Source: a phage
DNA length: 64,000 nt
Direction: 5' to 3' (one strand)
Assembly: GCA_029742005.1 (NCBI GenBank)
Contig: GCA_029742005.1_4113.1
Under the pieces are notes generated by a model. It was not told where the DNA came from. It was given only the letters and a program-made list of their open reading frames with translations, and did no database searches. Shown piece after piece: positions 39,279 to 53,093 of this stretch (positions within the stretch are counted from its first letter, which is position 1; the number at the start of each line of letters is the position of its first letter). The position numbers and the translations under genes are program-made.

Positions 39279-39292
39279 AAAGAATTGAAAAA

Positions 39293-39325: not shown

Positions 39326-39416
39326 ATATTCATTGAAACAATCTAGCCCACAGGGTGCATAAATGTATCTATTGTTTGCTGGTGGCTAGTACTATCAAGT
39401 ACTGAAAACTATTTTT

Positions 39417-39802: not shown

Positions 39803-39891
39803 TAAAATAGTTTGACAATAGTTTTTAGTACTGTATAATAGTTTACATCAAGTGGGGAATAGTTCCCCACCTAACAAAGAGAGAAATTAAA

Positions 39892-40167: not shown

Positions 40168-40254
40168 GTATTGACAAAGTATCTTAGTACTGTATAATAG
40201 TTTACATCAAGTGAGGGGAATGGTTCCCCTCCTAACAAAAAGAGAGAAATTAAA

Positions 40255-40578: not shown

Positions 40579-40592
40579 TAGAATCCATTTAA

Positions 40593-40629
40593 AGTACTAT
40601 TTGACATTACCCAGATAGTACTTTATAAT
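40593..40629 (+). promoter_or_regulatory. promoter TTGACA-17-TATAAT bracketed by IR AGTACTAT/ATAGTACT
   Basis: -35 40601-40606; -10 40624-40629. Confidence 0.6.
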
Positions 40630-40677
40630 AGACTCTAACTTGTAGTACTAATTAACTTAACTAATAGGATGTACACC

Positions 40678-41073
40678 ATGATTACTAAATTCTTCGCTAC
40701 CCGTGAACAAGCTCGCATCGTTGCCCGTGAAGAAGGTGAAACATTTAAAGACATGGGCAAAGATGCACCGAAAGGACAACGCTGGGCGGTACAGTTCAAA
40801 GAGATCTCTGATATTGTGAATTCACCTGAACCAGTACTTACTGAAGCAGAACTAAAGCAAGCTCAAGAACTGGCTGAAGTACTGAACGCTCAAGATGACT
40901 TCTTGGAAGGTTCTGATATTCAAGTACAAGTGAATAGTAATGCATGGACTCACGCGGATCACCTGGCAAACCTTAAGCGTCCAAGTGAACTGATTCGTAA
41001 CCAGAAAGAGATCCGTCATGACCGTAAAGGAAACCGTGTAACAGTATACAGTAAACGCCGCCAGGTTATCTAA
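40678..41073 (+). CDS. hypothetical protein, KFFATREQAR family
   Basis: Paralog of 29681-29947. Confidence 0.55.
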   Translation: MITKFFATREQARIVAREEGETFKDMGKDAPKGQRWAVQFKEISDIVNSPEPVLTEAELKQAQELAEVLNAQDDFLEGSDIQVQVNSNAWTHADHLANLKRPSELIRNQKEIRHDRKGNRVTVYSKRRQVI

Positions 41074-41095
41074 TAACTTGCAGTACTAACAACAC

Positions 41096-41120
41096 GGCGG
41101 GTTCAGTTCCCGCCTTTTTT
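41096..41120 (+). terminator. rho-independent terminator
   Basis: GGCGGG-TTCAGTT-CCCGCC + TTTTTT. Confidence 0.7.
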
Positions 41121-41135
41121 ATAGGATAAACTAAA

Positions 41136-41390
41136 ATGATGAAGGTACAACTATCTAAAGATAATATCTTGCGGGTACACTATAAAGCACCACAGAGAAT
41201 CATCACAAAGGCCGTACAGCTTGCTAATGAGTTTATTAATGGTAGTCTATTACCCAGGAAGTTAAGCAACGGAAAACTACGTGTTATCGATGTAGACACT
41301 AACAATAGAATAGTAATTGAGAGTACTGGAAAAATTAATCTATATGAACACCAACAATACAATAAAAAAATAAAACTAATATCACGTTGA
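41136..41390 (+). CDS. hypothetical protein
   Basis: RBS TAGGATAAA. Confidence 0.5.
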   Translation: MMKVQLSKDNILRVHYKAPQRIITKAVQLANEFINGSLLPRKLSNGKLRVIDVDTNNRIVIESTGKINLYEHQQYNKKIKLISR

Positions 41391-41446
41391 CAGTACTCAA
41401 TTGTTTTAGTATTATGTATCTATACCAACACAGAGAGAGAAACAAA

Positions 41447-41665
41447 ATGAAATTATCTAAAATCGAAAAGAAAACTATTGATGAAGCAGTGAAGCACGGT
41501 TATACCTTTCGTAATGATTCACATTTTACCAATTTTCAACAAGGGTATCGTACTATTAAAAAACTAATTGACAAAGGTTTATTAGTTGAAGTCAATAACG
41601 GCAATGGCATTGAGTATCAACCAACACAAGACGCATTATCACTAAAGAAATATTCTATTATCTAA
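41447..41665 (+). CDS. hypothetical protein
   Basis: Promoter TTGACAGTACTCAATTGTTTTAG-TATTAT upstream. Confidence 0.5.
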   Translation: MKLSKIEKKTIDEAVKHGYTFRNDSHFTNFQQGYRTIKKLIDKGLLVEVNNGNGIEYQPTQDALSLKKYSII

Positions 41666-41722
41666 TTGACAGTACTCAAATGTTTTAGTACTATGTACGC
41701 ATACCAACACGGGGAAAACAAA

Positions 41723-41950
41723 ATGATTACTTTAGAAAAACGTATCAAAGAGACTACAACGCTGGTGGAACTGTTAACCGTTCTTAAATGCCGGGTAACT
41801 CCATTCAGTACACCGGACTTTATCAACATGGTGGACGTTAACGGTCGATATCGTATTGCGGTCGAACAAGGTACGGCAAAAGTATTCAGTACTAAAAATA
41901 CGCGTGAAGTATTCCACGCAGTTCAAGTAAAAAAAAGTAGTTGCCATTGA
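41723..41950 (+). CDS. hypothetical protein
   Basis: Near-identical duplicated promoter upstream. Confidence 0.5.
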   Translation: MITLEKRIKETTTLVELLTVLKCRVTPFSTPDFINMVDVNGRYRIAVEQGTAKVFSTKNTREVFHAVQVKKSSCH

Positions 41951-41997
41951 TAGTAAAGTACTGTAATATAGTTTCATTAACTCAAGGAGTCAACACA

Positions 41998-42582
41998 ATG
42001 CGTAACTATACTAAATTCATCCGTTCACTTCATGCAATGGAAACCAACAAAGAGATCCTTTCAGCTTGTCGGTTAGCTGGACTGGAGATCGTCGGTGCGG
42101 GTTCTTCCCGTATTGTATTCGCTTTAAATGATCGGTTAGTGATTAAGGTCGCGAATTGTGATGCGGGTGTAGAACAAAATGAAACTGAATGTAAGGTATG
42201 GAATTTTTTAGATTATGACCGTCCGCACCTTAAACAGTTCTTTGCCAAGGTGCATATGCATTTATGCGATCCTGATAATCTGTTTATTGTTATGGATCGT
42301 TTGAGTACTGCAAGCAAAGGCAGTGTAAAGCATGTAAACGCGTGCAATGAGTTAAAGTACAATATTAAACGTAATACGGTAGAACGCCAACACCATTTCG
42401 CTGATGCTCTCAATCACGTTGATGATACATTATCCACACTAACGATAAGAGATATCAGAAAACAGAATATCGGCCAGGATCGCAACGGCTTGATTAAAGT
42501 ACTTGATTACGGTTTAACCCGCAATATCTGGAATCAGTACTATAAAAAACGTGATGTTAACGCGATAACTATAACACGATAA
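41998..42582 (+). CDS. protein kinase-like protein
   Basis: GAGSSRIVF (Gly loop), VIKVA (Lys), IRDIRKQN (catalytic loop), KVLDYG (DFG-like); RBS AAGGAG. Confidence 0.5.
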   Translation: MRNYTKFIRSLHAMETNKEILSACRLAGLEIVGAGSSRIVFALNDRLVIKVANCDAGVEQNETECKVWNFLDYDRPHLKQFFAKVHMHLCDPDNLFIVMDRLSTASKGSVKHVNACNELKYNIKRNTVERQHHFADALNHVDDTLSTLTIRDIRKQNIGQDRNGLIKVLDYGLTRNIWNQYYKKRDVNAITITR

Positions 42583-42596
42583 AAAAGATTAAAAAA

Positions 42597-42629
42597 GGGA
42601 TTGACTCCAGTCAGTCCCTTTGCTATTAT
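42597..42629 (+). terminator. terminator-promoter composite
   Basis: GGGATTGACTCCAGTCAGTCCC hairpin; TTGACT-17-TATTAT. Confidence 0.6.
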
Positions 42630-42803
42630 ATATTCATTGAGAGATAACTCACTGACCCATAGGGTGCGGAAGTGTATCTATTATATAAGTATTCAGTACT
42701 GAAAACTATTTGATAAAAAGTACTTGCAAACTATCTCAAAGAGCGTATAATGTTTTATATCGAGAGGGGGAAATGGTTTCCCCTCAAGTCCAGGAGATAC
42801 ACC

Positions 42804-43067
42804 ATGAACACTATCGAAATCACTATCAATGCACACGTATACGACAACGTAGTACTGCAAACTACTATGACCGCTAACGATACCAGTACTTTGCGGAATA
42901 CTGTTATTAGTGCTGTATGTGCCGCTATCGGTGATGTCGCCCTGGAAAATGCAAAACACGTAAACGATGGTTTCACTATGTGCAAACGTGATAACGCAAA
43001 ACATATCATCGTAGAAGGTTACGGCGGTGTAGAATATAATGTTTATATGAAAAAAGTACTTGCATAG
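42804..43067 (+). CDS. hypothetical protein
   Basis: Promoter + hairpin GAGAGGGGGAAATGGTTTCCCCTC upstream. Confidence 0.55.
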   Translation: MNTIEITINAHVYDNVVLQTTMTANDTSTLRNTVISAVCAAIGDVALENAKHVNDGFTMCKRDNAKHIIVEGYGGVEYNVYMKKVLA

Positions 43068-43134
43068 TACTGAATAAAGCGTATAATGTTTTGCATAGGG
43101 GGAGATATCCTCCCCCACTAAAAGGAGTATTAAA

Positions 43135-43359
43135 ATGGCTAACTTTGATGAACTGATGCGGGAAGTAGCTAACCTGGCAGAAGAGAAGAAATCATTCGAT
43201 TCTATCTATAACACCGCTCACCGTGATTCAGTACTGGCATGTAACCAGGATCAAAAAGATGAACTAATCGCCACATATCATGAAGCATGGAAGTACTACC
43301 GACAATGGGAGAAAGAAGAAAGCGAGTCTACCATCGAAGGTATCAATAATCTAATCTAA
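43135..43359 (+). CDS. hypothetical protein
   Basis: Promoter + hairpin upstream; RBS AAGGAG. Confidence 0.55.
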   Translation: MANFDELMREVANLAEEKKSFDSIYNTAHRDSVLACNQDQKDELIATYHEAWKYYRQWEKEESESTIEGINNLI

Positions 43360-43370
43360 AAGTTTTATTT

Positions 43371-43407
43371 CAGTACTATTGACATAGCTTGATAGTACTG
43401 ATATGAT
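43371..43407 (+). promoter_or_regulatory. promoter TTGACA-17-TATGAT bracketed by IR CAGTACTAT/ATAGTACTG
   Basis: -35 43379-43384; -10 43402-43407. Confidence 0.55.
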
Positions 43408-43434
43408 AACTTTACTAACTAAAGGGGAAACATA

Positions 43435-43692
43435 ATGGAACAGTTCACACAATATCGGGTAAATCCTCAAGCGATGGCCTACGTAGAAGACCATAAAACG
43501 TTACCAGTACTGCAACCAGTTAAAGGCCATATCTATCGTGCAATGTCGTGGAGTGCGGCCCAGGATGGATATAAAACCGTCGCCGTGGGGATGTATTGCG
43601 GGAATGGTGAATGGTTTGATCCTAACAATCCGATTGCACTTGACAGTACTGAAAAAATGAAATGGGCCGACTACATCGAAGATATTTCATAA
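43435..43692 (+). CDS. hypothetical protein
   Basis: RBS AAAGGGGAAA. Confidence 0.55.
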   Translation: MEQFTQYRVNPQAMAYVEDHKTLPVLQPVKGHIYRAMSWSAAQDGYKTVAVGMYCGNGEWFDPNNPIALDSTEKMKWADYIEDIS

Positions 43693-43782
43693 AAACTATT
43701 TGACAGTACTAACCAGTAATGTATAATGTTTTACATAGAGCGGGGGAATAGTTCTCCCGCCAATAGTTTGGAGTAAAACATT

Positions 43783-43983
43783 ATGTCTATCGCTATCGCC
43801 CTGGTTGAAGTACTGAAAGAAGCTAAAGCCAACCTTATCGATGTACAGATTAAGGAATTGCAAAACGGCTTAATCGGCTGTACTTGTACCGCTGGTGGAG
43901 CGGCAGACTATCGAGAACACGAATCACTCGAATCACTGGTTCGGTATCTTACCATGATCGTTGATGATTGGAGAATCATCTAA
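43783..43983 (+). CDS. hypothetical protein
   Basis: Promoter + hairpin GCGGGGGAATAGTTCTCCCGC upstream. Confidence 0.55.
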   Translation: MSIAIALVEVLKEAKANLIDVQIKELQNGLIGCTCTAGGAADYREHESLESLVRYLTMIVDDWRII

Positions 43984-44000
43984 CAAAAAAGAATAAAAAA

Positions 44001-44033
44001 GGGATTGACTCCGGTCAGTCCCTTTGCTATTAT
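44001..44033 (+). terminator. terminator-promoter composite
   Basis: GGGATTGACTCCGGTCAGTCCC hairpin; TTGACT-17-TATTAT. Confidence 0.6.
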
Positions 44034-44228
44034 ATACGCATAGACAAAAACTAGCCCACTGGGTGCATAAGTGTATCCAAAATATATAGTTAATAACGGT
44101 GAGTAACTATCTGCTGGTGGAGTGAAAACTATTAATAAAAAAAGTATTGACAAAGTATATCAGTACTGCGATAATGTATCTCGTAGGGCGGCAATGGTGC
44201 GACGGCCCACAAAGTTAGGAGATTCAAA

Positions 44229-44561
44229 ATGACTACTTCAATCGCTATCGTTAAAGCTTTCATCCGTACTAATGTTTCCTCTGTATTCATCGACGGCCTC
44301 GACCGTAACGTAGAATACTCAATCATTATCGCACAAACGGCAAACGGTTCTCGGTACATCCTGAATGATAGTGAAGCAAATCACTACTACTTCACTAAAG
44401 CCACTGGCTTTAAACGCATCGATGCTGATGTAGTATACGCTAAGATGAATAAGCTGGTAGATAAGATTAACGCTAAAGGTACTATAGATTTACAGTACTG
44501 GACCGAAACCGATCCAGAATATGGATCTCACCGCTACCTGAATCCAGGTATTAAAATGTAA
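44229..44561 (+). CDS. hypothetical protein
   Basis: RBS TAGGAGA. Confidence 0.55.
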   Translation: MTTSIAIVKAFIRTNVSSVFIDGLDRNVEYSIIIAQTANGSRYILNDSEANHYYFTKATGFKRIDADVVYAKMNKLVDKINAKGTIDLQYWTETDPEYGSHRYLNPGIKM

Positions 44562-44650
44562 AAAGTACTTGCATAGTACTTAGATTCATGTATAATGTTT
44601 TACATAGAGAGGGGGAAATGGTTCTCCCTCCTAAATTAAGGAGTTTTATC

Positions 44651-45052
44651 ATGACCTTCTCAATCACTTCCTTCGCTGACGTTTTAGTACTGGCTCGGAC
44701 TTTTGGTAAAGATGCACTGGAGTACGCTGTAAGTAATGGCACTATCCAACCGGAACAGTGCCGCATCATTGGAAACTGCAAACGTTGGGCGGTATCCAAT
44801 ACTATTGCACTGGAAAACTTCAACGATGGCAACAATGAATATTCTGTTGATGCAGTATTCGAAGCCGTAGACCTGGGCGGTATCTATAACACTAACCTGA
44901 ATGATGTGCGTATCGTTCGCACTGGCTTCGGTGCTTATGATGTATCTATCCGTGAAGCTATGGACAAGGGATACATTAGCAAGGACCAGTTAGCTTACAT
45001 CATGCAGCAAACTAAGGAGCGTAACGAAGCCCGTACTATCTTAGGGTTGTAA
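44651..45052 (+). CDS. hypothetical protein
   Basis: Promoter + hairpin GAGAGGGGGAAATGGTTCTCCCTC upstream; RBS AAGGAG. Confidence 0.55.
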   Translation: MTFSITSFADVLVLARTFGKDALEYAVSNGTIQPEQCRIIGNCKRWAVSNTIALENFNDGNNEYSVDAVFEAVDLGGIYNTNLNDVRIVRTGFGAYDVSIREAMDKGYISKDQLAYIMQQTKERNEARTILGL

Positions 45053-45120
45053 GCGTTACACATCACCAAACATCATAGGCCGCCTTGTAGCGGCCTTAAC
45101 TATATCAGGAGTACATACAC

Positions 45121-45330
45121 ATGATCTATACAGTATATAGCGTTCTAGGTACTATTGCAGGCGTACACGATAACGTCGATAGTGCTATGCGTACAGTACT
45201 GCAACAGGTTCCACTAAAGCCTAAGACCATTAAGCAGATGACAGCACGATTAACCAGGGCGACGGCTGGCGTGGAAGTATGGCAGGACTATGGGGATACA
45301 CAGATAATCGTAAGCGTAACGAAGGATTAA
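45121..45330 (+). CDS. hypothetical protein
   Basis: RBS TCAGGAG. Confidence 0.5.
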   Translation: MIYTVYSVLGTIAGVHDNVDSAMRTVLQQVPLKPKTIKQMTARLTRATAGVEVWQDYGDTQIIVSVTKD

Positions 45331-45561
45331 TGCGTAAAAGGATTTAGTACTGAATCAAAAAAAAGTCAAGGCATTTTTTTCATGCGTCGAAAAAAAACTT
45401 AACCAGTACACTATCACGCATGAAATAATTTTGACCAGTGATTATATCTCTTGCCCTAAAGGGCGGGTAATGTCTTAGCGAGCATATTGGAGTTCTTGGG
45501 TAGGACAAAATTATTTCTTGTGCTATAATTATATCGAATGTAATCATAGAAAGGAGTCCCT

Positions 45562-45759
45562 ATGCGTATTTTAACTGAAGAAGAGCACAACCACACACTC
45601 ATATCCAACATGGCATATATCCTACATATGTCACATATCCGTGGTATTGCATATAAGCGTGAATTGGTTATGAAACTTTTCATAGGAACTAACTATCAAG
45701 AAAAGTATATCGAACTATACTTACAAGAATTACGAAGGGACATAAAAGGAAGACGATGA
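45562..45759 (+). CDS. small protein, LGTNYQ-motif family C
   Basis: RBS AAAGGAG; ..FIGTNYQEKY.. Confidence 0.55.
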   Translation: MRILTEEEHNHTLISNMAYILHMSHIRGIAYKRELVMKLFIGTNYQEKYIELYLQELRRDIKGRR

Positions 45760-45956
45760 AAATGCGTATTTTAAATAAAGAAGATTATCAAGAACTGTTA
45801 TGTAAAAACATGGTAAAGATTTATAACACAGACACAAACTTAGAACGAATTGAGTTATACCTTTTGATTACATTGGGAACAAGCTATCAGAGAAGATGGG
45901 TGATTCAATATATGGATGCATTGAAAAATGAAATATTGTCCACGAGGAAACAATGA
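45756..45956 (+). CDS. small protein, family C
   Basis: ATGA overlap; ..LGTSYQRR.. Confidence 0.5.
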   Translation: MKMRILNKEDYQELLCKNMVKIYNTDTNLERIELYLLITLGTSYQRRWVIQYMDALKNEILSTRKQ

Positions 45957-46162
45957 AAACTATAACACGAACCCAATCATACGGTCTTATCTTGAGATAC
46001 ATGGACTTAATGTTGGATATCAGCAAAGACCTTCCTAAAACTGCAATTGAAGTTACAAGAGCAGAGATCCGCATGTTGGCTGTACTGAACACAAACCATC
46101 AGGAAGAGTATGTTGATGATTGGATTAATTTTTTAATTCAAGATATAAAGAGTAAACTATGA
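45953..46162 (+). CDS. small protein, family C
   Basis: ATGA overlap; ..LNTNHQEEY.. Confidence 0.5.
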   Translation: MKTITRTQSYGLILRYMDLMLDISKDLPKTAIEVTRAEIRMLAVLNTNHQEEYVDDWINFLIQDIKSKL

Positions 46163-46371
46163 TTTTTTTAACACCAGAAGAATATAAGATACGTTTTGTT
46201 TCTGTCCAGAATAAAATCTTAATTATATACAATTCAAATGCAGACCTTAACTTATCAAGGGTATTAGAAAAAGATTTACTTATGGGTGCATTTTTGGATA
46301 CAGACTTTCAGGAGTATTATGTAGGGGAATACTTAATTGCACTCAAGAATTATATTAAGAGTAAACTATGA
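46159..46371 (+). CDS. small protein, family C
   Basis: ATGA overlap; ..LDTDFQEYY.. Confidence 0.5.
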   Translation: MIFLTPEEYKIRFVSVQNKILIIYNSNADLNLSRVLEKDLLMGAFLDTDFQEYYVGEYLIALKNYIKSKL

Positions 46372-46583
46372 ATATCATTGCAAACTCAAATCAATATACC
46401 GAACGCGTCGCTGCAAGACAACTTGAAATTCTCATAGTATACGAAGAGACTTCTGATTTAAACTTAGCCGAGGTATTGGAAAATGATATACTATTGGGTG
46501 CATTCCTCGGCACAGACTATCAGGAGCACTTCTTGAATGAGTATATAATTGCACTCCAGAAATACATTAAGAGCAAACTATGA
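46368..46583 (+). CDS. small protein, family C
   Basis: ATGA overlap; ..LGTDYQEHF.. Confidence 0.5.
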   Translation: MNIIANSNQYTERVAARQLEILIVYEETSDLNLAEVLENDILLGAFLGTDYQEHFLNEYIIALQKYIKSKL

Positions 46584-46816
46584 AACATTTAAGTAACTCC
46601 GAGAAGAATAAAATTATCGTTGCTGCAATAAACAAATATTTTACACTTCCTCACACAGAAGGTTTATGTGTAAGAGAACACAGGATAAACACCACCGATA
46701 TACGCATGATGGCTGTACTGGGGACTAACTTTCAGAAGGAGTATGTTGATGCACACATTACCGCACTGATGAACTTTATAATGGGAAAGGTAAATGAAAC
46801 ACTTAACACTAGATGA
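46580..46816 (+). CDS. small protein, family C
   Basis: ATGA overlap; ..LGTNFQKEY.. Confidence 0.5.
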   Translation: MKHLSNSEKNKIIVAAINKYFTLPHTEGLCVREHRINTTDIRMMAVLGTNFQKEYVDAHITALMNFIMGKVNETLNTR

Positions 46817-47051
46817 ATATGAAACTATAGTCCGTAAACTAACCCCTATAGCAAGGATAGTCTACGATGACCCCAGCCTTACATGGAACCAAATGCGAGC
46901 TAAAGTTAATGAGCTATGGTTGCTGTACTTTATGGGAACGCAATATCAAGATAAGTTTTGCACAGAATATGTCGAACAATTAATGAATGTTATACAGGAT
47001 AAACTAGATGATTATTGGCTCGCAAAACATGAAGACTTTATCAGGAGTTGA
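46794..47051 (+). CDS. small protein, family C
   Basis: ..MGTQYQDKF.. Confidence 0.5.
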   Translation: MKHLTLDEYETIVRKLTPIARIVYDDPSLTWNQMRAKVNELWLLYFMGTQYQDKFCTEYVEQLMNVIQDKLDDYWLAKHEDFIRS

Positions 47052-47280
47052 GTATCAAACTGCCCTATTCTCTTTAATCCATACCCTTAGAAAAAACAAT
47101 GCCTTACATGGTGCACCTGAAGTGGATGTTATCAACGGTGAACTTTATCTGATGAAATTCATTGGAACAAACTATCAAGATCTGTTCATTCAACGATACC
47201 TATCAGCATTAAGAAACCAAATCCAATATAAAACCATCAAGGCCAAAAAAGAATGGAATAAACAATGCGACACAGACTAA
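47029..47280 (+). CDS. small protein, family C
   Basis: ..IGTNYQDLF..; start uncertain. Confidence 0.45.
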   Translation: MKTLSGVEYQTALFSLIHTLRKNNALHGAPEVDVINGELYLMKFIGTNYQDLFIQRYLSALRNQIQYKTIKAKKEWNKQCDTD

Positions 47281-47516
47281 ATCACAAAATGTATTGTAAA
47301 CTATTGCAGACACTGGCACAGAAACACTATGACACGGTATCTGAAATATTACCCTATGATATCATGCGTTTACTTCACTGTGAGGCCGAGATGCTTGTAC
47401 TGATGACAGGCACAGATAAAAAAGCAATTGCCAAATCAATAGATATGTTCATCGAAGCACAATGTCAACACATTAGAACCGAGATATGGAGGCGAGAGAA
47501 TGATAACCCTAAATGA
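47265..47516 (+). CDS. small protein, family C (divergent)
   Basis: ..MTGTDKKAI.. Confidence 0.45.
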   Translation: MRHRLNHKMYCKLLQTLAQKHYDTVSEILPYDIMRLLHCEAEMLVLMTGTDKKAIAKSIDMFIEAQCQHIRTEIWRRENDNPK

Positions 47517-47715
47517 GTATCAGTATCATTGGAGGTTACAAGCTATAAGAAGGAAAGTTGTTAGTATTTCTTTAGACAAGTCTATTGCACAAGAGGACAA
47601 ATGTGTTATAATAGCTGAAATGAAGTTGGGTGTTTTCGTAGGGACAAACTATCAAAACATCTACACTGACGTATTGTTAAGTGTCTTACGTAACAAGGTG
47701 ATATCAAAAGAATGA
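47500..47715 (+). CDS. small protein, family C
   Basis: ..VGTNYQNIY.. Confidence 0.5.
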   Translation: MITLNEYQYHWRLQAIRRKVVSISLDKSIAQEDKCVIIAEMKLGVFVGTNYQNIYTDVLLSVLRNKVISKE

Positions 47716-47930
47716 GAAAATTACAAGGCTTTGAATACATCAGGCTCCTGAAAACATGTGGCAGCAGAAGGAGAATGATATCAAGCGATAAGAGCATCTC
47801 TATTGACCTGAAGCACGCAATGAAAGCTGAACTCTATGTATGAGCACTATTGGGGACAAACTATCAACAAATGTATGTAGACCTATGGATTGATGCATTA
47901 GTCAAGGAGGTCCAAAGTAAATGCAAATGA
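47712..47930 (+). pseudogene. family C member interrupted by in-frame TGA at 47841-47843
   Basis: ATGA overlap start; 43 codons, TGA, then ALLGTNYQQMYVDLWIDALVKEVQSKCK in the same frame. Confidence 0.5.
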
Positions 47931-48139
47931 TTAATTTAAGTAAAGATGAATTTTATGTTCTACTGGCGAAAACTTATTCATTACGCAAGGCCGTTTATGA
48001 TAGTCACATTATTGAACCAACAAAGAAGTTGATTTTAGTATCTGAGATAAAGATGCTTTCAGTCTTAGGAACAAACTACCAAGAGAATGCTGTACTGTTG
48101 TTAATTGATGCCCTCAAGAGAGAGATACAAAGTAAATGA
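47927..48139 (+). CDS. small protein, family C
   Basis: ATGA overlap; ..LGTNYQENA.. Confidence 0.5.
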   Translation: MINLSKDEFYVLLAKTYSLRKAVYDSHIIEPTKKLILVSEIKMLSVLGTNYQENAVLLLIDALKREIQSK

Positions 48140-48375
48140 TTCATTTATCTTACCATGATTATCAAAAACGTTTAAATGCATCAAGGGATATAAGAATTCA
48201 AATCTTCAATAACAAAAAATTGAAACCTGACACCAGAAGAATCAAAATAATCGAAGCAGAGTTATGCAACTTCCTGGGGACGAACTATCAGGCAGGTAAG
48301 GTAAAAAACTATCTTAGAGAACTCATGAATTGTATCGAAAATAAATGCGATGCTTTGGAGGATAAAAATGATTAA
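48136..48375 (+). CDS. small protein, family C
   Basis: ATGA overlap; ..LGTNYQAGK.. Confidence 0.5.
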   Translation: MIHLSYHDYQKRLNASRDIRIQIFNNKKLKPDTRRIKIIEAELCNFLGTNYQAGKVKNYLRELMNCIENKCDALEDKND

Positions 48376-48625
48376 TTTAAATTCTGATGAATATCATGAA
48401 CGCATGGCTAAAATCTCAACTAAACGAAATGAAATCTATCACAACCCAGAAATTCAACACAGTAAGAAAATGATTATGATGCGTGAGTTAAAGTTGGGTG
48501 TATTCTTAGGAACAAACTATCAAGAACCAGAGGTCCAACGCGTATTAAATGAATTACTAATGGAAATCAGAGGTAAGCTTTACTTTCATCAAATGACCCA
48601 ACCACTGAGGTGTACTGTGAAATGA
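48368..48625 (+). CDS. small protein, family C
   Basis: RBS GGAGGA; ..LGTNYQEPE.. Confidence 0.5.
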   Translation: MINLNSDEYHERMAKISTKRNEIYHNPEIQHSKKMIMMRELKLGVFLGTNYQEPEVQRVLNELLMEIRGKLYFHQMTQPLRCTVK

Positions 48626-48837
48626 TCAACATCACATTACAAGAAAGATTCATCCGAATCAACTATGCAATTTCCAAATTAGATGCTACAATAGGATTTC
48701 AAAGTCTACCGTTCAAAACCAGAATGATATTAGAGTGCGAAGCCAGGTTAGGTGTACTGTTAGGGACGCAACACCAACAACGATATGTGGAAATCTGGAT
48801 TGATCTTTTAACCCAAAATGCACATGAGAGAATGTAA
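48622..48837 (+). CDS. small protein, family C
   Basis: ..LGTQHQQRY.. Confidence 0.5.
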   Translation: MINITLQERFIRINYAISKLDATIGFQSLPFKTRMILECEARLGVLLGTQHQQRYVEIWIDLLTQNAHERM

Positions 48838-49068
48838 ATGCAAAATGAAATGATATACTTAACACATGATGAATTTCAAGAGAAGATGTTAAAAGCCAAT
48901 AACATTACTCTTAAGTTCGTTCCAAATCAATCAATATATGAAATGTCTGCGAATGTATTGTTTGAGAAGCTACCATACGTTCTTGGAACTGATAAACAAG
49001 AATTTATGGTTCAAAATATGATTGAGCATCTTGCAATGAGTATTATGGAAAAAGTAAATGCAAAATGA
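48838..49068 (+). CDS. small protein, family C (divergent)
   Basis: ..LGTDKQEFM..; start may be 48850. Confidence 0.45.
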   Translation: MQNEMIYLTHDEFQEKMLKANNITLKFVPNQSIYEMSANVLFEKLPYVLGTDKQEFMVQNMIEHLAMSIMEKVNAK

Positions 49069-49318
49069 AATGAAATACTTAACATATAATGAATACGTCG
49101 AGAGATTAGTTAGTGCCAAGAGATATGCCAATCAACTTCCTAATGATCCAAACCAAACCCCAGAGGAAAAGAATGCGGAAGCTCTATTCCAAGCACTACC
49201 ATACCTTCTTGGAACTGATAGGCAGGAGTATCACGTTGAACGTATAATTAAATCTCTTAAAATCACTATTAAGGAAAAAGTAAATGCAAAAGGAAATGAT
49301 ATACTTAACAGACGATGA
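49058..49318 (+). CDS. small protein, family C (divergent)
   Basis: ..LGTDRQEYH..; start may be 49070. Confidence 0.45.
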   Translation: MQNEMKYLTYNEYVERLVSAKRYANQLPNDPNQTPEEKNAEALFQALPYLLGTDRQEYHVERIIKSLKITIKEKVNAKGNDILNRR

Positions 49319-49541
49319 GTTAAAAGAACGATTAATTAAATCCAGAAAACTTACAAATCAACTTCCAAACGACACAAACAAGTCACCTGCCGAAAGGAGT
49401 GCAGAAGTTTTATACATTCAACTCATGTACTTTCTTGGAACTGACAGACAAGAGTATTACATTGAAAGTATGCTTCGATATCTTAAATTCTCTATAAAGG
49501 AAAAGATACATGCTCAAGAATTTAAAAATCCTAACAGCTAA
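49284..49541 (+). CDS. small protein, family C (divergent)
   Basis: ..LGTDRQEYY..; start may be 49296. Confidence 0.45.
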   Translation: MQKEMIYLTDDELKERLIKSRKLTNQLPNDTNKSPAERSAEVLYIQLMYFLGTDRQEYYIESMLRYLKFSIKEKIHAQEFKNPNS

Positions 49542-49767
49542 TGAATATCATAAGATTGTAATGGAAACTAATAGTGCTTACGCTAAAAAATCAAACCCAA
49601 AGTATATACTGGAACACACATTTGAAGAACGTCAATTAGCTCTAGTTGAAGCAAAACTTCTTGCACTATTAGGAACAAACTATCAGGAAGAATACAATAG
49701 AAAACTAATATACCTTTTAACTAAACACATCAGGAAAAGAAAAAAGCATGAAACACTTGACAGATGA
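49510..49767 (+). CDS. small protein, family C
   Basis: ..LGTNYQEEY.. Confidence 0.5.
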   Translation: MLKNLKILTANEYHKIVMETNSAYAKKSNPKYILEHTFEERQLALVEAKLLALLGTNYQEEYNRKLIYLLTKHIRKRKKHETLDR

Positions 49768-49978
49768 TGAACATGGGCTTATAGTAATGGATGTAATCAA
49801 CATCGAATTCAAAAAGTTGATACGCTACCGTTGTTATGAAGATAAGCAACTCGTTCTAGCAGAACAGAAGTTGTTTCGACTCTTAAACACAAACTACCAA
49901 GCACAATACGAAGAATCGTATATGTACCTTTTGGCGAGGAAAGCAAAAAGAGATTATGAAAATTTTAAGCCACGATAA
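49748..49978 (+). CDS. small protein, family C
   Basis: ..LNTNYQAQY.. Confidence 0.5.
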   Translation: MKHLTDDEHGLIVMDVINIEFKKLIRYRCYEDKQLVLAEQKLFRLLNTNYQAQYEESYMYLLARKAKRDYENFKPR

Positions 49979-50171
49979 ACAAACAGAATTGTTAATCTTT
50001 AATACAAGTAAATTCTTAAACATAACATTGTCTGATATAGATGAGGATGAAAAAGAGTTACTTAGAGCAGATTTAAGAGTTCTTTTATATATTGGAACTA
50101 ACTTCCAAGAGCAATTCGTTGAGGACTACATCGATGAACTTAAAGAATCTGTACTGAGAACATGCAAATGA
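49956..50171 (+). CDS. small protein, family C
   Basis: ..IGTNFQEQF.. Confidence 0.5.
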   Translation: MKILSHDKQTELLIFNTSKFLNITLSDIDEDEKELLRADLRVLLYIGTNFQEQFVEDYIDELKESVLRTCK

Positions 50172-50413
50172 AAATCCTTTCACCAAGTGAATACCACGAA
50201 CTATTAAGTAGTTTAATTCTAAAATTGTATATAGCAAAGACCACAGATTTACCAGATGAAGAAAAAAATATTCTAATGAGTGAAATCTATGTTAATTCTA
50301 CCCTAGGGACTAACTATCAAGAATGTAATATTAATGATTACATCAAAGAACTAAAAAGGTTTATCCAATGCAAATGCGAATCATTACCGGAGAAGAATAC
50401 CGAACAATCATAA
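50168..50413 (+). CDS. small protein, family C
   Basis: ATGA overlap; ..LGTNYQECN..; 3' end runs into next gene. Confidence 0.5.
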   Translation: MKILSPSEYHELLSSLILKLYIAKTTDLPDEEKNILMSEIYVNSTLGTNYQECNINDYIKELKRFIQCKCESLPEKNTEQS

Positions 50414-50610
50414 ATGGACTGTTTTTGAAGTTATTTGCCATTAACACATCAAAACTACCAGATACGGATAAAATTATTAAGTTAAATGAAATCTACGTTC
50501 AAGCTACTCTAGGAACTAACTATCAAGAAGCCAATGTGTATAATTACATTAATACACTTAAAAGGGTAATACAATTAAAATGCACAGACAGCACATACAC
50601 AAACCCCTAG
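50374..50610 (+). CDS. small protein, family C
   Basis: ..LGTNYQEAN..; near-duplicate of 50168. Confidence 0.5.
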   Translation: MRIITGEEYRTIINGLFLKLFAINTSKLPDTDKIIKLNEIYVQATLGTNYQEANVYNYINTLKRVIQLKCTDSTYTNP

Positions 50611-50810
50611 GAACAGCAGAATACATTGAACTAATGGCAGCAAACTTCTCATCCTTTCAGAAACTGATGCAAGAATCAAATAATGATTTAGAATATCATA
50701 TCAAAAGTTCAGATTTAAGATTGTTACTCACTCTAGGAACAGACAGTCAGTACAAATTCGTACAGGAGCATATTAGAGCACTTTTAAATGGCATCAGGAA
50801 TAAACTATGA
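50580..50810 (+). CDS. small protein, family C (divergent)
   Basis: ..LGTDSQYKF.. Confidence 0.45.
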   Translation: MHRQHIHKPLGTAEYIELMAANFSSFQKLMQESNNDLEYHIKSSDLRLLLTLGTDSQYKFVQEHIRALLNGIRNKL

Positions 50811-51022
50811 AGGTAATATCAAACCAAGAGTACTTGGCACTATTCAGAAAAAATAGTCAAGAATTTCTGAATCTTGATACAAGAACTGATATAAGTGAAC
50901 TTGAAAAAAATCTTTTGCGTTCAGAGATGATAGTACTGACACTCTTAGGAACACAGCACCAAGAGAGAACTGTTAATTCACACATAGGGATTCTTATACA
51001 GATAGTACAGGAAAAGATATGA
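50807..51022 (+). CDS. small protein, family C (divergent)
   Basis: ATGA overlap; ..LGTQHQERT.. Confidence 0.5.
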   Translation: MKVISNQEYLALFRKNSQEFLNLDTRTDISELEKNLLRSEMIVLTLLGTQHQERTVNSHIGILIQIVQEKI

Positions 51023-51240
51023 GAATCATAACACAACAAGATATTCTTAAGTTCACAAGGGTTCATGCATCTGAATTTGATGCTATATTATCAAAAAGTT
51101 ACAACAACCCTTATACAGAAGATGTACACTACAGTGAATTATGGGTGTATATACTTTTAGGTACAGATCATCAAGAGCAAGCAGTACAGAAGTATTTGTT
51201 AGCGTTAAGTACTGCTACTGCTAATGGAGTATGTGTTTAA
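51019..51240 (+). CDS. small protein, family C (divergent)
   Basis: ATGA overlap; ..LGTDHQEQA.. Confidence 0.5.
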   Translation: MRIITQQDILKFTRVHASEFDAILSKSYNNPYTEDVHYSELWVYILLGTDHQEQAVQKYLLALSTATANGVCV

Positions 51241-51241
51241 T

Positions 51242-51484
51242 ATGAAAGTACTGACAGAATTAGAAATGTATCATAGATTTAATAAGTACTATCATTTACT
51301 TAAACCTATACAGAGGATTAAGTGTCCCTTTGTAGTGAAACAGGTATTAATTTATGAGCATAAGTTATTTGTATCATTAGGTACGAATGAACAAGAGTAT
51401 TATTTGAAGTTGTACTTAATTACTTTAATTGAATTGATTAATTACAAAACTCAGAAAGCGAAGAAATCTAAAAATGAAAACTAA
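51242..51484 (+). CDS. small protein, family C (divergent)
   Basis: RBS GGAG; ..LGTNEQEYY.. Confidence 0.5.
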   Translation: MKVLTELEMYHRFNKYYHLLKPIQRIKCPFVVKQVLIYEHKLFVSLGTNEQEYYLKLYLITLIELINYKTQKAKKSKNEN

Positions 51485-51815
51485 AATTCAACTCAGGGTA
51501 TACATATCGTATGAAAATATATACGTTAAAAGTAGTCTATGTAAAGATGTAATGGACTACAAAGGTAAACCATTCACAGTTACTTACAGTTTAACAGGAG
51601 GTTTATATATCTCTTTTGCTAATTACGAAAATAATATGTACGAACACATTGACATTGAAGATTTAAGTACTTTATCACCAGAGGAATACTTCCAGGAATC
51701 ATTAGTATGGGATTTAGAGTTCCCTATGCCATTAGTACATAAGATGATAGTACTAATGAAAGAATCTAAACAGGAGCCTAATAGTGCTTATGAAGAACAC
51801 ATTATTGAGTATTAA
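51474..51815 (+). CDS. FQ-motif family D protein inside family C array
   Basis: ..SPEEYFQESLVWDLEF.. Confidence 0.5.
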   Translation: MKTKIQLRVYISYENIYVKSSLCKDVMDYKGKPFTVTYSLTGGLYISFANYENNMYEHIDIEDLSTLSPEEYFQESLVWDLEFPMPLVHKMIVLMKESKQEPNSAYEEHIIEY

Positions 51816-51827
51816 GAGTACTGATAT

Positions 51828-52043
51828 ATGAAAAGATTATCATACAAAGATTACAGTAAACTTATCAGTACTTTACAACCAGAAATTAGAAGAATTAATT
51901 ATCTTCCTATATCTAACGAAGAACGTGTAGTACTGAAAAATGAGTTAATCTTAAAACGCACAGTAGGTACTAACTATCAAGATAATAGTGTTCGCGATTT
52001 AATTAGAGGGTTAATGATCACAATAAAGGCCAAGTGCTATTGA
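51828..52043 (+). CDS. small protein, family C
   Basis: ..VGTNYQDNS.. Confidence 0.5.
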   Translation: MKRLSYKDYSKLISTLQPEIRRINYLPISNEERVVLKNELILKRTVGTNYQDNSVRDLIRGLMITIKAKCY

Positions 52044-52107
52044 CAGTACTTGACGGAGCTTTTCATTACTGATATAGTGCATCAACGTTAATCATAGGGT
52101 ACAGATT

Positions 52108-52353
52108 ATGTTAAAATTTTTAAATTTCCTTATCGTCTTGTGTATTGTTCTTGGAATTGCACCGTTTGTATTAGCGTATCTGGATTCAGATGAAATGCAG
52201 AAGATGAATTGCACAAAGACAGGACAGAGTAGAGAAGAGACGGTTATGATGCCTGTAACGGTTATTGTGAATAACATACCAATTACGAACATGATTCCTA
52301 CCCTAACGACAACGTACCAGTACTCTTGTGCTGACGGAGAGAGGTGGAGATGA
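52108..52353 (+). CDS. small membrane protein
   Basis: Hydrophobic N-terminus; RBS ATAGGG weak. Confidence 0.45.
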   Translation: MLKFLNFLIVLCIVLGIAPFVLAYLDSDEMQKMNCTKTGQSREETVMMPVTVIVNNIPITNMIPTLTTTYQYSCADGERWR

Positions 52354-52661
52354 AATTTAATATAGCAAAAACATCGAGTATATGTATTTTTGGTTATTCC
52401 TATGAATTGGGTGATATTGACATTCTATTGTACAAAACGAATGGTGTTATGCATTTCAAGTACCAGGATGAAGAGGCAGACAATTATCTTTTACCTAATT
52501 TAGTACAAATGCAGGAAGAGGAATTATTCCAGTACAGCTTAATATACGACATTGATATTTGCACGATGCCAGTATTAATTAGTATTCAAAAAGTGATGCT
52601 CGATATGTATGATAAGCTAATACAAGGTATGTCAGGGAGGATCATTGAAATCGATATATAA
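52344..52661 (+). CDS. FQ-motif family D protein
   Basis: ..QEEELFQYSLIYDIDI.. Confidence 0.5.
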   Translation: MEMKFNIAKTSSICIFGYSYELGDIDILLYKTNGVMHFKYQDEEADNYLLPNLVQMQEEELFQYSLIYDIDICTMPVLISIQKVMLDMYDKLIQGMSGRIIEIDI

Positions 52662-52857
52662 GAATTTACCTAATGAATATTTGTTGAAGTACAAAGAGTT
52701 TATTAAAGATGTATATGTAGATCCTTTTAATATCAAATTTGCAGAGTTCGAAGTATCATTTTATCTAGGGACAATAGTACAGGACCAATACGTTGATAAT
52801 CTAATAAGGTGTTTGAAAAAGGAGATACAATGCAGACCCAAATGTACAAAAAAATAA
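52645..52857 (+). CDS. small protein, family C (divergent)
   Basis: ..LGTIVQDQY.. Confidence 0.45.
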   Translation: MKSIYKNLPNEYLLKYKEFIKDVYVDPFNIKFAEFEVSFYLGTIVQDQYVDNLIRCLKKEIQCRPKCTKK

Positions 52858-53093
52858 ACTGTTATTTGTATGCATCAAAGTACAGGGATTTTTGTTTACG
52901 AGGGGGAGAGGAAGATTTTGCTCTGAGATTATCGGAATTTAATATGTTATTTTATCTTGGTACATCAGTACAAGAAGAAATGGTACAGAAATTTATCAAT
53001 CACCTTGTACAAAAAATTAATATGCAAATTTTGATGCTTGAGTTACAGAATGAGATAAACAAATATGAACCCAACAATAGTACAGGATCTTAA
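52830..53093 (+). CDS. small protein, family C (divergent)
   Basis: RBS AGGAGA; ..LGTSVQEEM.. Confidence 0.45.
   Translation: MQTQMYKKINCYLYASKYRDFCLRGGEEDFALRLSEFNMLFYLGTSVQEEMVQKFINHLVQKINMQILMLELQNEINKYEPNNSTGS

What the first reader, a model, noticed from the sequence alone, without database searches (positions are those of the whole stretch)
45562..53093. About 30 tandem, translationally coupled small paralogs with a conserved LGTNYQ-E core
Over 7.5 kb nearly every gene encodes a 65-90 aa protein built as: variable N-terminal half, then [LVIF]-[LF]-[LV]-G-T-[ND]-[YF]-Q-[ED]-x-[YF], then a short helix ending in basic residues. Most junctions are ATGA stop/start overlaps, so the array is probably one or a few polycistronic units. 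The motif is retained while the rest diverges, including variants such as LGTDRQ, LGTQHQ and LNTNHQ. This scale of amplification of one small fold is unusual and points to a diversifying effector or inhibitor family with many specificities. No function is recognisable from sequence.
Basis: seen in the sequence. Interest (0 to 1): 0.72.

Follow-up and report, generated by a model that had tools for sequence, protein, structure and literature searches.

The report
Thirty-gene small-protein array in jumbo coliphage
A giant E. coli phage carries, right after its terminal repeat, a packed row of 30 old, diverged copies of one small four-helix protein with no known relative; they are probably early host-manipulating proteins, but their function is untested.

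Summary
Window 45562-53093 (+ strand) holds 29 intact members and one member broken by an in-frame TGA. All belong to one ~70-aa family, PHROG 4148 (function unknown). Three unrelated ORFs sit near the 3' end of the array.

The members align over their whole length, not only at the LGTNYQ motif. AlphaFold predicts a confident four-helix fold with no informative match among solved structures.

The window comes from an Asteriusvirus-like jumbo coliphage (121Q/PBECO4/phAPEC6 group). The array starts about 86 bp after the inner edge of the ~20-kb direct terminal repeat, which is dense with sigma-70-type promoters. It has its own promoter-like site and almost no intergenic space.

The nine Asteriusvirus-like relatives examined carry 21-31 members at the same locus, mostly in the same order. 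The paralogs are old (mean 29% identity, maximum 51%). Orthologs are under purifying selection (dN/dS about 0.34), with allele replacement and loss at some positions.

My best reading (confidence about 0.45) is a battery of early, non-virion, protein-binding host-takeover or anti-defence modulators built on one scaffold. It was diversified long ago and has been maintained, rather than being amplified recently. The function is inferred, not shown. [quoted passage not shown]

The parts
27142..45476 (+). Equivalent of the ~20-kb direct terminal repeat (DTR) of Asteriusvirus genomes. It is context for the array, not part of it. It carries about 35 small genes, most with their own near-consensus sigma-70-type promoter.
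   Evidence: The fEgEco12 termini and its 20,993-bp DTR were determined experimentally (PMC13070987). The two DTR copies in that record are identical. Its left end maps to window 27142, and its inner boundary maps to about 45476 by reading the shared boundary sequence across. 24 of the 28 strict promoter matches lie in this stretch.
45502..45529 (+). Promoter-like site in front of the array: AGGACA, 16 nt, TGcTATAAT (extended -10). It lies in unique DNA just past the DTR boundary.
   Evidence: Consensus match only; not shown to be functional.
45562..45759 (+). family member 1 (65 aa, LFIGTNYQ)
   Evidence: phrog_4148 E 1e-14
45756..45956 (+). family member 2 (66 aa, ITLGTSYQ)
45953..46162 (+). 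family member 3 (69 aa, AVLNTNHQ)
46159..46371 (+). family member 4 (70 aa, AFLDTDFQ)
46368..46583 (+). family member 5 (71 aa, AFLGTDYQ)
   Evidence: phrog_4148 E 2e-17
46580..46816 (+). family member 6 (78 aa, AVLGTNFQ)
46794..47051 (+). family member 7 (85 aa, YFMGTQYQ)
47029..47280 (+). family member 8 (83 aa from the conserved start; the first ATG is at 47008; KFIGTNYQ)
47265..47516 (+). family member 9, the most divergent (83 aa, LMTGTDKK)
   Evidence: AF2 model: pLDDT 84.6, helices 7-26, 31-47, 52-80.
47500..47715 (+). family member 10 (71 aa, VFVGTNYQ)
47712..47930 (+). family member 11, interrupted by an in-frame TGA at 47841-47843 (...ELYV*ALLGTNYQQ...). It is either a recent nonsense mutation or a sequencing error.
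   Evidence: Sequence. Both halves hit the family HMM. All 7 related loci checked have a sense codon (Gly or Leu) at that position.
47927..48139 (+). family member 12 (70 aa from the conserved start; the first ATG is at 47921; SVLGTNYQ)
   Evidence: AF2 model of the 72-aa form: pLDDT 97.3.
48136..48375 (+). family member 13 (79 aa, NFLGTNYQ)
48368..48625 (+). family member 14 (85 aa from the conserved start, VFLGTNYQ)
48622..48837 (+). family member 15 (71 aa from the conserved start, VLLGTQHQ)
48850..49068 (+). family member 16 (72 aa from the conserved start, YVLGTDKQ)
49070..49318 (+). family member 17 (82 aa from the conserved start, YLLGTDRQ)
   Evidence: phrog_4148 E 2e-22
49296..49541 (+). 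family member 18 (81 aa from the conserved start, YFLGTDRQ)
49510..49767 (+). family member 19 (85 aa, ALLGTNYQ)
49748..49978 (+). family member 20 (76 aa, RLLNTNYQ). It is 97-99% identical to its ortholog in the six closer relatives compared.
49956..50171 (+). family member 21 (71 aa, LYIGTNFQ)
50168..50413 (+). family member 22 (81 aa from the conserved start, STLGTNYQ). Its positional ortholog ranges from 39% to 100% identity among the closer relatives.
50374..50610 (+). family member 23 (78 aa from the conserved start, ATLGTNYQ)
50580..50810 (+). family member 24 (76 aa, LTLGTDSQ)
50807..51022 (+). family member 25 (71 aa, TLLGTQHQ)
51019..51240 (+). family member 26 (73 aa, ILLGTDHQ)
51242..51484 (+). 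family member 27 (80 aa from the conserved start, VSLGTNEQ)
51474..51815 (+). Interspersed non-family ORF (113 aa). It belongs to a second paralog family (phrog_13866), together with 52344 and probably 54338, on the resemblance of their sequences.
   Evidence: Not matched by the family HMM.
51828..52043 (+). family member 28 (71 aa, RTVGTNYQ). It is the last gene before the only real intergenic gap.
52050..52078 (+). Second promoter-like site: TTGACG, 17 nt, TGaTATAGT. It lies in the 64-nt gap.
52108..52353 (+). Interspersed non-family ORF (81 aa) with a hydrophobic N-terminus; phrog_8826.
52344..52661 (+). Interspersed non-family ORF (103-105 aa), related to 51474 and 54338.
   Evidence: The relationship rests on my reading of the sequences; no Pfam match.
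52645..52857 (+). family member 29 (70 aa, TTG start, FYLGTIVQ)
52830..53093 (+). family member 30 (87 aa from ATG 52830; the GTG at 52809 would give 94 aa; FYLGTSVQ)
   Evidence: phrog_4148 E 1e-4

Best explanation
The array is an old, lineage-specific multigene family of a jumbo coliphage (Asteriusvirus group). About 30 diverged copies of one small soluble four-helix protein lie head to tail immediately after the left direct terminal repeat.

I infer the following steps; none is shown.
- Host RNA polymerase transcribes the array early, from a sigma-70-type promoter at 45502-45529, as one long message of about 6.5 kb. A second, shorter message starts at the promoter at 52050.
- The genes are translated by coupling or re-initiation across the overlapping stop and start codons.
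- The products stay in the cell and are not built into virions.
- Each product acts as a small protein-binding modulator of a different host target, for takeover or counter-defence.
- A shared hydrophobic core and the G-T-x-x-Q junction hold the fold. Paralog-specific surface residues give each copy its own specificity.

Shown here: family membership, predicted fold, position, synteny across relatives, and purifying selection.
For: Family and fold:
- 29 intact members plus one interrupted member, found nowhere else in the window.
- The members align beyond the motif.
- AlphaFold gives pLDDT 97.3 and pTM 0.82, with four helices and a beta-bridge between the N-terminal strand and the invariant Thr. 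The most divergent member still gives an all-helical model, but with three helices because the first two merge (pLDDT 84.6).

Position and likely timing:
- In fEgEco12, whose ends were determined experimentally, the DTR is 20,993 bp (PMC13070987). The first array gene there starts at 21,091.
- The same boundary sequence lies at about window 45476.
- The DTR-equivalent holds 24 of the 28 strict sigma-70-like promoters in the window, against about 1 expected.
- In PA5oct, which that paper describes as related to 121Q/PBECO4, phage production is blocked by rifampicin and most DTR genes are early (PMC7318152).

Packing: 27 of 32 junctions overlap, and only one gap exceeds 12 nt.

Not in the virion: none of gp462c-gp489c appears in the phAPEC6 virion mass-spectrometry table (PMC7247149; gene numbers).

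The genes are real and individually maintained:
- Pooled ortholog dN/dS is 0.33-0.35.
- Positional orthologs exist in Turkey3, phAPEC6, G17, Salmonella phage SD-15, 121Q and phage contigs from E. coli assemblies. Those loci hold 25-31 copies.

Accessory-type turnover:
- Some positions are only 39-60% identical between otherwise close phages.
- Copy number varies from 25 to 31 among the close relatives.
- One copy is nonsense-mutated in this genome.

Diversified surfaces:
- pI ranges from 4.4 to 9.9. Conserved positions are mostly the hydrophobic core plus T7, E10, Y11, E42, G50, T51, N52, Q54, E55 and K72.
- The residues just before the motif (profile positions 41-45) differ between paralogs but are 94-97% conserved within ortholog groups.
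Against: - There is no expression, localisation, binding or phenotype data for any member, in any phage.
- The promoter assignments are consensus matches. The scan as a whole found no more promoter-like sites in 44-55 kb than shuffles do.
- Known anti-defence genes usually show presence/absence patchiness. This array is largely syntenic, and its selection regime is only slightly more relaxed than that of its neighbours (0.34 against 0.26).
- The invariant Thr and the near-invariant Gln are not explained by a 'variable binder' model. They could mark a shared active or docking site.
- No library of anti-defence proteins was available to search.
- Which genome end enters the cell first is unknown.
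Confidence: 0.45

Rival explanations
1. The members are adaptors, chaperones or regulators for the phage's own machinery. For example, each copy could partner one of the phage's other paralogous proteins (RCC1-like propellers, fibres or whiskers) or tune phage replication, rather than act on host targets.
For: The same window holds several other large paralog families: ten RCC1-like genes at 11204-22803, about 16 small proteins at 22882-26868, and the phrog_13866/15629 family. Stable synteny and purifying selection fit housekeeping partners of conserved phage proteins.
Against: No family with a matching copy number lies in the window. The array sits next to the early terminal-repeat genes, not next to structural modules. 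Allele replacement down to 39-60% identity at some positions is unusual for partners of conserved phage proteins. One copy is broken here.
Confidence: 0.18
2. The members are nucleic-acid-binding regulators: small transcription or translation factors, or DNA-coating proteins. This is what Iyer et al. proposed for the ~35-copy zinc-ribbon expansion of phage G.
For: The median pI is 8.7 and many copies end in basic residues. The helix, G-T turn, helix layout looks superficially like a helix-turn-helix. Iyer et al. propose this role for the phage G expansion (PMC7824862).
Confidence: 0.1
3. The copies are subunits of one hetero-oligomeric assembly made in fixed stoichiometry, which would explain the tight translational coupling.
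For: 27 of 32 junctions overlap. Every copy is kept in most relatives. The small hydrophobic core leaves room for inter-subunit packing.
Against: Copy number varies from 21 to 31 across relatives. Positions are replaced by 40-60% identical alleles. One copy carries a stop codon here. Surface charge varies widely. No assembly of this kind is known.
Confidence: 0.07
4. The array is largely functionless filler produced by tandem duplication, which let the genome grow into a larger capsid. This is the 'ratchet' idea of Hua et al. 2017.
For: Hua et al. offer tandem arrays in 121Q and phage G as evidence for genome growth by duplication (PMC5646251). One copy is dispensable here.
Against: Ortholog dN/dS of about 0.34 is well below 1, and reading frames are intact in 29 of 30 copies despite paralog divergence to about 29% identity. 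Neutral copies would have decayed long ago. The fold-determining residues are conserved in all copies.
Confidence: 0.05

Closest known systems
[quoted passage not shown] 2017, mBio, PMC5646251); family catalogued as PHROG 4148, function unknown
   Same: Same genus and, very probably, the same locus. My HMM finds 25 members in the 121Q locus. Window members match phrog_4148 with E-values from 1e-4 to 2e-22 over nearly the full length.
   Different: The paper gives one sentence with no coordinates, family definition, fold, position or selection analysis. I could not confirm that it means this array. 'Very similar' does not fit, because the paralogs average 29% identity.
Phage G expansion of about 35 copies of a zinc-ribbon protein (Iyer et al. 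2021, PMC7824862)
   Same: It is a lineage-specific expansion of one very small domain to about 30-35 copies in a jumbo phage, with unknown function.
   Different: The fold is different (zinc ribbon against a four-helix protein without conserved Cys or His). The phage lineage and host are different. No homology.
Early genes in long terminal repeats: PA5oct DTR genes (PMC7318152) and the T5 pre-early region (own knowledge)
   Same: Many small uncharacterised genes at or next to a long direct terminal repeat, read in one direction, dependent on host RNA polymerase. In T5 these genes serve host shut-off and anti-restriction.
   Different: The array lies just outside the repeat, has one promoter for about 27 genes rather than one per gene, and is a single paralog family. 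Its timing has not been measured in any Asteriusvirus.
Multigene families of large eukaryotic DNA viruses: poxvirus Bcl-2-like proteins and African swine fever virus MGF110/360/505 (own knowledge)
   Same: One small, mostly helical fold is duplicated many times near the genome ends. The copies have diverged to low identity, and each is kept and used against a different host immune component. Copy sets vary between strains.
   Different: The hosts are eukaryotic, the folds are unrelated and the proteins are larger. The comparison is functional only.
Phage anti-defence gene clusters (anti-CRISPR loci, T-even accessory regions) and orphan immunity-gene arrays of polymorphic toxin systems (own knowledge)
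   Same: Small, early, non-structural proteins with no detectable homologs, clustered and co-transcribed. Allele replacement occurs between close relatives. Immunity arrays are also tandem rows of small helical paralogs.

Membership tests
PHROG 4148 (phage protein family, unknown function) | Significant full-length match to the family HMM | tested here: met
   Seven of the eight members scanned match positions 1-3 to 69-73 of the 74-position profile, with E-values from 4e-10 to 2e-22. The outlying last member matches at 1e-4 over the C-terminal half.
Any curated Pfam, NCBIfam, PADLOC or PDB-sequence family | Match above the curated cut-off, or a family that recurs across members | tested here: not met
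   All 29 members were scanned. No family is hit by more than one member and none reaches its cut-off. The profile against PDB sequences gives a best E-value of 0.56.
Helix-turn-helix DNA-binding proteins | Structural match to HTH domains, a short 3-4-residue turn, and a generally basic recognition surface | tested here: not met
DNA-mimic anti-restriction proteins (Ocr/ArdA/Arn type) | Strongly acidic surface in all members | tested here: not met
   The median pI is 8.7, and 18 of 29 members carry a net positive charge.
Virion or internal-head proteins | Detection in purified particles | tested here: not met
   The phAPEC6 virion proteome (62 proteins) lists no gp45x-gp49x entry. The family there is gp462c-gp489c. 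This is absence of detection in one phage, and small proteins are easy to miss.
Recent adaptive gene amplification ('gene accordion') | Near-identical tandem copies, and copy number that varies between very close isolates | tested here: not met
   The maximum paralog identity is 51% and the mean is 29%. The nearest paralog is not preferentially adjacent (p=0.17). Each copy has a positional ortholog in most relatives.
Early (host-RNA-polymerase) transcription unit | A functional sigma-70 promoter and transcripts in the first minutes of infection | not testable with these tools
   There are only consensus matches at 45502-45529 and 52050-78, the position next to the promoter-dense DTR, and analogy with PA5oct. 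No transcript data were found for any Asteriusvirus.
Anti-defence proteins (anti-CRISPR, anti-RM, anti-CBASS and similar) | Homology to a characterised inhibitor, or demonstrated inhibition of a defence system | not testable with these tools
   No anti-defence profile library was available; PADLOC covers defence systems, not inhibitors. The fold searches returned only family members and generic helices.
Translationally coupled operon | Stop/start overlaps, and dependence of downstream translation on upstream translation | tested here: inconclusive
   The overlaps are present: 12 ATGA junctions and 27 of 32 overlapping, many without a Shine-Dalgarno match. Dependence of translation cannot be tested in silico.

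The most novel reading that the evidence does not exclude
The invariant G-T-x-x-Q junction, together with the conserved T7/E10/Y11 and E42, may form a common docking pole. Through it, all ~30 paralogs would plug into one hub, while their variable faces each recruit a different target. Candidate hubs are a host protease, RNA polymerase, the ribosome, or the protein kinase encoded in the adjacent terminal repeat. That would make the array a phage-encoded 'adaptor library' that redirects one host or phage machine to about 30 substrates. An invariant exposed Thr next to a neighbouring Ser/Thr-kinase-like gene would also allow control by phosphorylation.
Probability: 0.08. Interest if true: 0.85.

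Novelty: new member of a known kind. Interest (0 to 1): 0.5.

Why it matters
Jumbo phages are full of genes that nobody can name. Here about 2% of a 350-kb genome is one small protein made in 30 versions. The set has been kept for a long time, sits at the edge of the early terminal repeat, and has a confidently predicted fold with no informative match in the structure libraries searched.

If the copies are host-takeover or counter-defence binders, the array offers roughly 30 natural variants of one scaffold with different targets. That would be a compact system for discovering bacterial defence or physiology targets and for studying how binding specificity evolves on a 70-residue fold. It would also bear on host range, since these phages are being developed for therapy.

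If the copies instead share one docking partner, the array would be a kind of viral adaptor system not described in phages. Either outcome can be tested with standard deletion, expression and pull-down experiments.

Tried and rejected
- **Homology searches found no function.** Pfam, NCBIfam and PADLOC scans of all 29 members gave no recurrent or significant family. A profile search against PDB sequences gave only noise, with E>=0.56.
- **A 2180-aa hit is a chance motif match.** The exhaustive profile search returned a 2180-aa protein with eight matches. It is a repeat protein with an 'LGVVIGTDVQA' unit that matches only 18 motif columns, so I rejected it as a homolog.
- **Domain fusions gave no clue.** P0195 is a family domain plus about 200 C-terminal residues, encoded at the 3' end of the array in phage contigs from E. 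coli assemblies. The extra part has no Pfam match.
- **No link to the other small-protein family.** hhalign against the family at 22882-26868 gave probability 0.5%.
- **No sign of cassette shuffling at the motif.** No ortholog or paralog pair combines >=85% identity in one half with <=55% in the other. Only members 5 and 6 show a milder discordance.
- **No sign of recent tandem duplication.** There is no adjacency signal.
- **No Rfam family** matches at gathering score in 28-54 kb.
- **Literature.** No searchable paper contains 'phrog_4148' or 'LGTNYQ'. Asteriusvirus genome papers do not discuss the array.

Full report
**What is there.**
- The + strand between 45562 and 53093 is an almost gap-free run of 33 ORFs.
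- Twenty-nine of them align into one family of 65-87 residues.
- A thirtieth, 47712-47930, is the same protein with an in-frame TGA at 47841-47843 (sequence). Both halves hit the family HMM. All seven related loci checked have a sense codon there.
- Three ORFs near the 3' end are not members: 51474-51815, 52108-52353 and 52344-52661.
- An HMM scan of the six-frame translation finds no member elsewhere in the window.
- The strict motif [LIVMF]GT[NDQS][YFHRKSE]Q occurs 24 times in the region and never in the rest of the six-frame translation.

**Is it more than a motif?** Yes.
- Leave-one-out HMMs built after deleting the 13 motif columns still detect 29 of 29 members above the best of 200 shuffles. 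The median is 33 bits against 8.
- The N-terminus is also conserved (M-K-x-L-T-x-x-E-Y).
- Conserved positions are mostly a hydrophobic core (L6, L15, I38, I43, M45, L49, V58, Y61, I62, L65, I69).
- The rest is a polar set: T7, E10, Y11, E42, G50, T51, N52, Q54, E55 and K72. T51 is invariant and Q54 is kept in 28 of 29.

**Junctions.**
- With family-consistent start codons, 12 of 32 junctions are ATGA.
- 27 of 32 overlap by 3-40 nt.
- Only one gap exceeds 12 nt: 64 nt at 52044-52107.
- Many starts lack a Shine-Dalgarno match. Coupling or re-initiation is therefore plausible, but it is not shown.

**Fold.**
- AlphaFold2 with the 29 paralogs as the alignment gives pLDDT 97.3 and pTM 0.82. The helices are 8-17, 19-27, 33-47 and 54-71. 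A beta-bridge joins residue 4 to the invariant Thr 51.
- The most divergent member (47265) gives pLDDT 84.6 with helices 7-26, 31-47 and 52-80, the first two being merged.
- Foldseek against the PDB finds nothing at E<=0.001.
- Foldseek against viral models finds, at high probability, only uncharacterised phage proteins. Every named one is from an Asteriusvirus-group coliphage (121Q, PBECO4, UB, slurp01).
- No Pfam, NCBIfam, PADLOC or PDB-sequence family is matched.
- The family is PHROG 4148, function unknown.

**Whose genome, and where in it.**
- The region is 85-94% identical to Asteriusvirus jumbo coliphages and to a few Salmonella relatives. The closest include Turkey3, fEgEco12, phAPEC6, G17, 121Q and PBECO4.
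- fEgEco12 has experimentally confirmed ends and a 20,993-bp direct terminal repeat (PMC13070987). I checked that the two copies in its record are identical.
- Its first array gene starts at 21,091, which is 98 bp past the repeat.
- The repeat's left end maps to window 27142. Its inner boundary sequence lies at about 45476, read across.
- So the window runs from the unique right end, through the single collapsed repeat (27142-45476), into the array.
- The repeat-equivalent is packed with small genes. Most are preceded by a near-consensus TTGACA/TTGCAA-17-TATAAT promoter, often followed by a GC-rich 5' hairpin.
- A strict promoter pattern matches 28 times on the + strand against about 1 expected, and 24 of those matches fall in 27.5-44.2 kb.
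- The array has one promoter-like site of its own just after the boundary (AGGACA-16-TGcTATAAT, 45502-45529). A second lies in the 64-nt gap (52050-52078).
- In PA5oct, which its authors describe as related to 121Q/PBECO4, phage production is blocked by rifampicin and most terminal-repeat genes are early (PMC7318152).
- Early expression of the array as one or two long messages is therefore a reasoned inference, not an observation.

**Distribution.**
- An exhaustive profile search of 1.84 billion representative proteins returns only 98 hits.
- A word-indexed search returns 175 hits. Those with a source name are Escherichia or Salmonella phage proteins, or 'E. coli' proteins on contigs of about 350 kb. 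I take the latter to be phage genomes carried in bacterial assemblies.
- tblastn with one member (window 50168-50410) against 50,697 phage records hits the family in 36 records only, all Escherichia or Salmonella jumbo phages.
- More distant uncultured relatives also carry multi-copy arrays. L005 has at least 15 copies, and its nearest phage is A4. L011 has at least 12 copies.

**Evolution.**
- HMM counts in related loci are as follows:

| Locus | Copies |
|---|---|
| Turkey3 | 31 |
| phAPEC6 | 30 |
| G17 | 31 |
| Salmonella SD-15 | 28 |
| 121Q | 25 |
| Three assembly-borne phages | 28-29 |
| Turkey5 (divergent) | 21 |

- Window members have positional orthologs in the same order, but identity ranges from 39% to 100% depending on the position and the phage. 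Member 20 is 97-99% identical in the six closer relatives, whereas member 22 ranges from 39% to 100%.
- Paralogs within the window average 29% identity, with a maximum of 51%. The nearest paralog is not preferentially a neighbour (p=0.17). The duplications are therefore old, and this is not a recent amplification.
- Pooled dN/dS for orthologs of at least 60% identity is 0.33-0.35 in four comparisons. Flanking non-family genes give 0.24-0.27. This is clear purifying selection, slightly relaxed.
- I found no chimeras that recombine at the motif.
- The residues just before the motif (profile positions 41-45) differ between paralogs but are 94-97% conserved within ortholog groups. They are candidate specificity residues.

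**Other properties.**
- pI spans 4.4-9.9. That argues against a uniform DNA-binding or DNA-mimic role.
- No member has a hydrophobic segment typical of membrane proteins (sequences; hydropathy).
- None of the phAPEC6 orthologs (gp462c-gp489c) appears in that phage's virion proteome (PMC7247149).

**Interpretation.**
- The evidence fits an old, lineage-specific multigene family of early, intracellular, non-structural small proteins. Each copy is individually maintained, and there is accessory-type turnover at some positions.
- I commit, at about 0.45, to protein-binding modulators of host targets (takeover or counter-defence) built on one scaffold.
- The rivals are partners or regulators of the phage's own proteins (0.18), nucleic-acid binders (0.10), a hetero-oligomeric assembly (0.07) and near-neutral filler (0.05). 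The remainder is something not considered.
- The invariant Thr and Gln are not explained by a pure 'variable binder' model. They leave open a shared docking or active site.

**Prior knowledge.**
- Hua et al. [quoted passage not shown] The phAPEC6 paper echoes this.
- That is probably this array. No coordinates, family definition or function are given, and I could not verify the identity.
- No searchable paper contains the PHROG number or the motif.
- Iyer et al. 2021 describe a comparable ~35-copy zinc-ribbon expansion in phage G.
- So the phenomenon and the existence of the array are known. New here are the family definition, the fold prediction, the position at the terminal-repeat boundary, the age, the synteny and the selection regime.

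**Verdict.** The feature is real and well defined, and it is interesting as an experimental target. It is not a new kind of system on present evidence. Interest 0.5.

Noticed in passing
whole window; sparse in 44000-60000: The palindrome AGTACT is the most frequent hexamer in the window: 269 copies against 20.7 +/- 4.6 in block shuffles, about 13-fold. The extended form is (C)AGTACT(G). It is enriched both in coding DNA (3.3 per kb) and intergenic DNA (10 per kb). It often abuts the -35 ('AGTACTTGCAA') or the -10 ('AGTACTgTATAAT') of the early promoters. Per 4-kb bin, the 44-60 kb stretch holds only 7, 10, 2 and 0 copies, so the LGTNYQ array and especially its downstream neighbours are poor in it. 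Its meaning is unknown; it could be a regulator site, a modification or restriction-related site, or a packaging signal.
   Followed up: partly
27142-45476: This stretch is the equivalent of the ~20-kb direct terminal repeat, so the window spans the junction of the genome ends. It holds about 35 small genes. Most have their own near-consensus sigma-70-type promoter, and many have a GC-rich hairpin (for example ggggagaaatgattctcccc) between promoter and ribosome-binding site. 24 of the 28 strict promoter matches in the window lie here, against about 1 expected.
   Followed up: partly
11204-22803, minus strand: Ten tandem paralogs of about 370-396 aa with an RCC1-like beta-propeller (PF25390 E 2e-16; phrog_4219 'regulator of chromosome condensation'). 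One gene was scanned; the other nine are judged from their size and arrangement.
   Followed up: partly
22882-26868, + strand: A second array of about 16 small proteins (48-84 aa) with the pattern K-E-[YF]-Y ... Y-x-x-I-L-x-L-I. It is unrelated to the LGTNYQ family by profile-profile comparison (probability 0.5%). It lies in the unique DNA just before the terminal repeat.
   Followed up: partly
51474-51815, 52344-52661, 54338-54655 and 60148-63882: A further paralog family of about 105-160 aa (phrog_13866 / phrog_15629). It is partly interleaved with the 3' end of the LGTNYQ array, which is the end that differs most between related phages.
   Followed up: no
41998-42582: A 194-aa protein inside the terminal-repeat equivalent with a weak protein-kinase match (Pfam E 1e-3, below cut-off). 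It is annotated as a Ser/Thr kinase in Turkey3, Turkey5 and fEgEco12. The fEgEco12 repeat also carries genes annotated as spackle, DksA-like zinc finger and GNAT acetyltransferase.
   Followed up: no
47841-47843: In-frame TGA in one family member, where all seven relatives checked have a Gly or Leu codon. It is a recent nonsense mutation, a read-through site or a sequencing error.
   Followed up: yes
L002-L004, 10001-10810 (phage contigs in E. coli assemblies): A 269-aa protein (P0195) joins an N-terminal LGTNYQ-family domain to about 200 further residues with no Pfam match. It sits at the variable 3' end of the array. Two 121-122-aa members with short C-terminal extensions occur in metagenomes (P0198, P0200).
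   Followed up: partly
2225-4188 and 7584-10023, + strand: Two more runs of 6-7 similarly sized genes (about 104-126 aa; phrog_19285 and phrog_19046). Most of this window consists of tandem paralog families.
   Followed up: no
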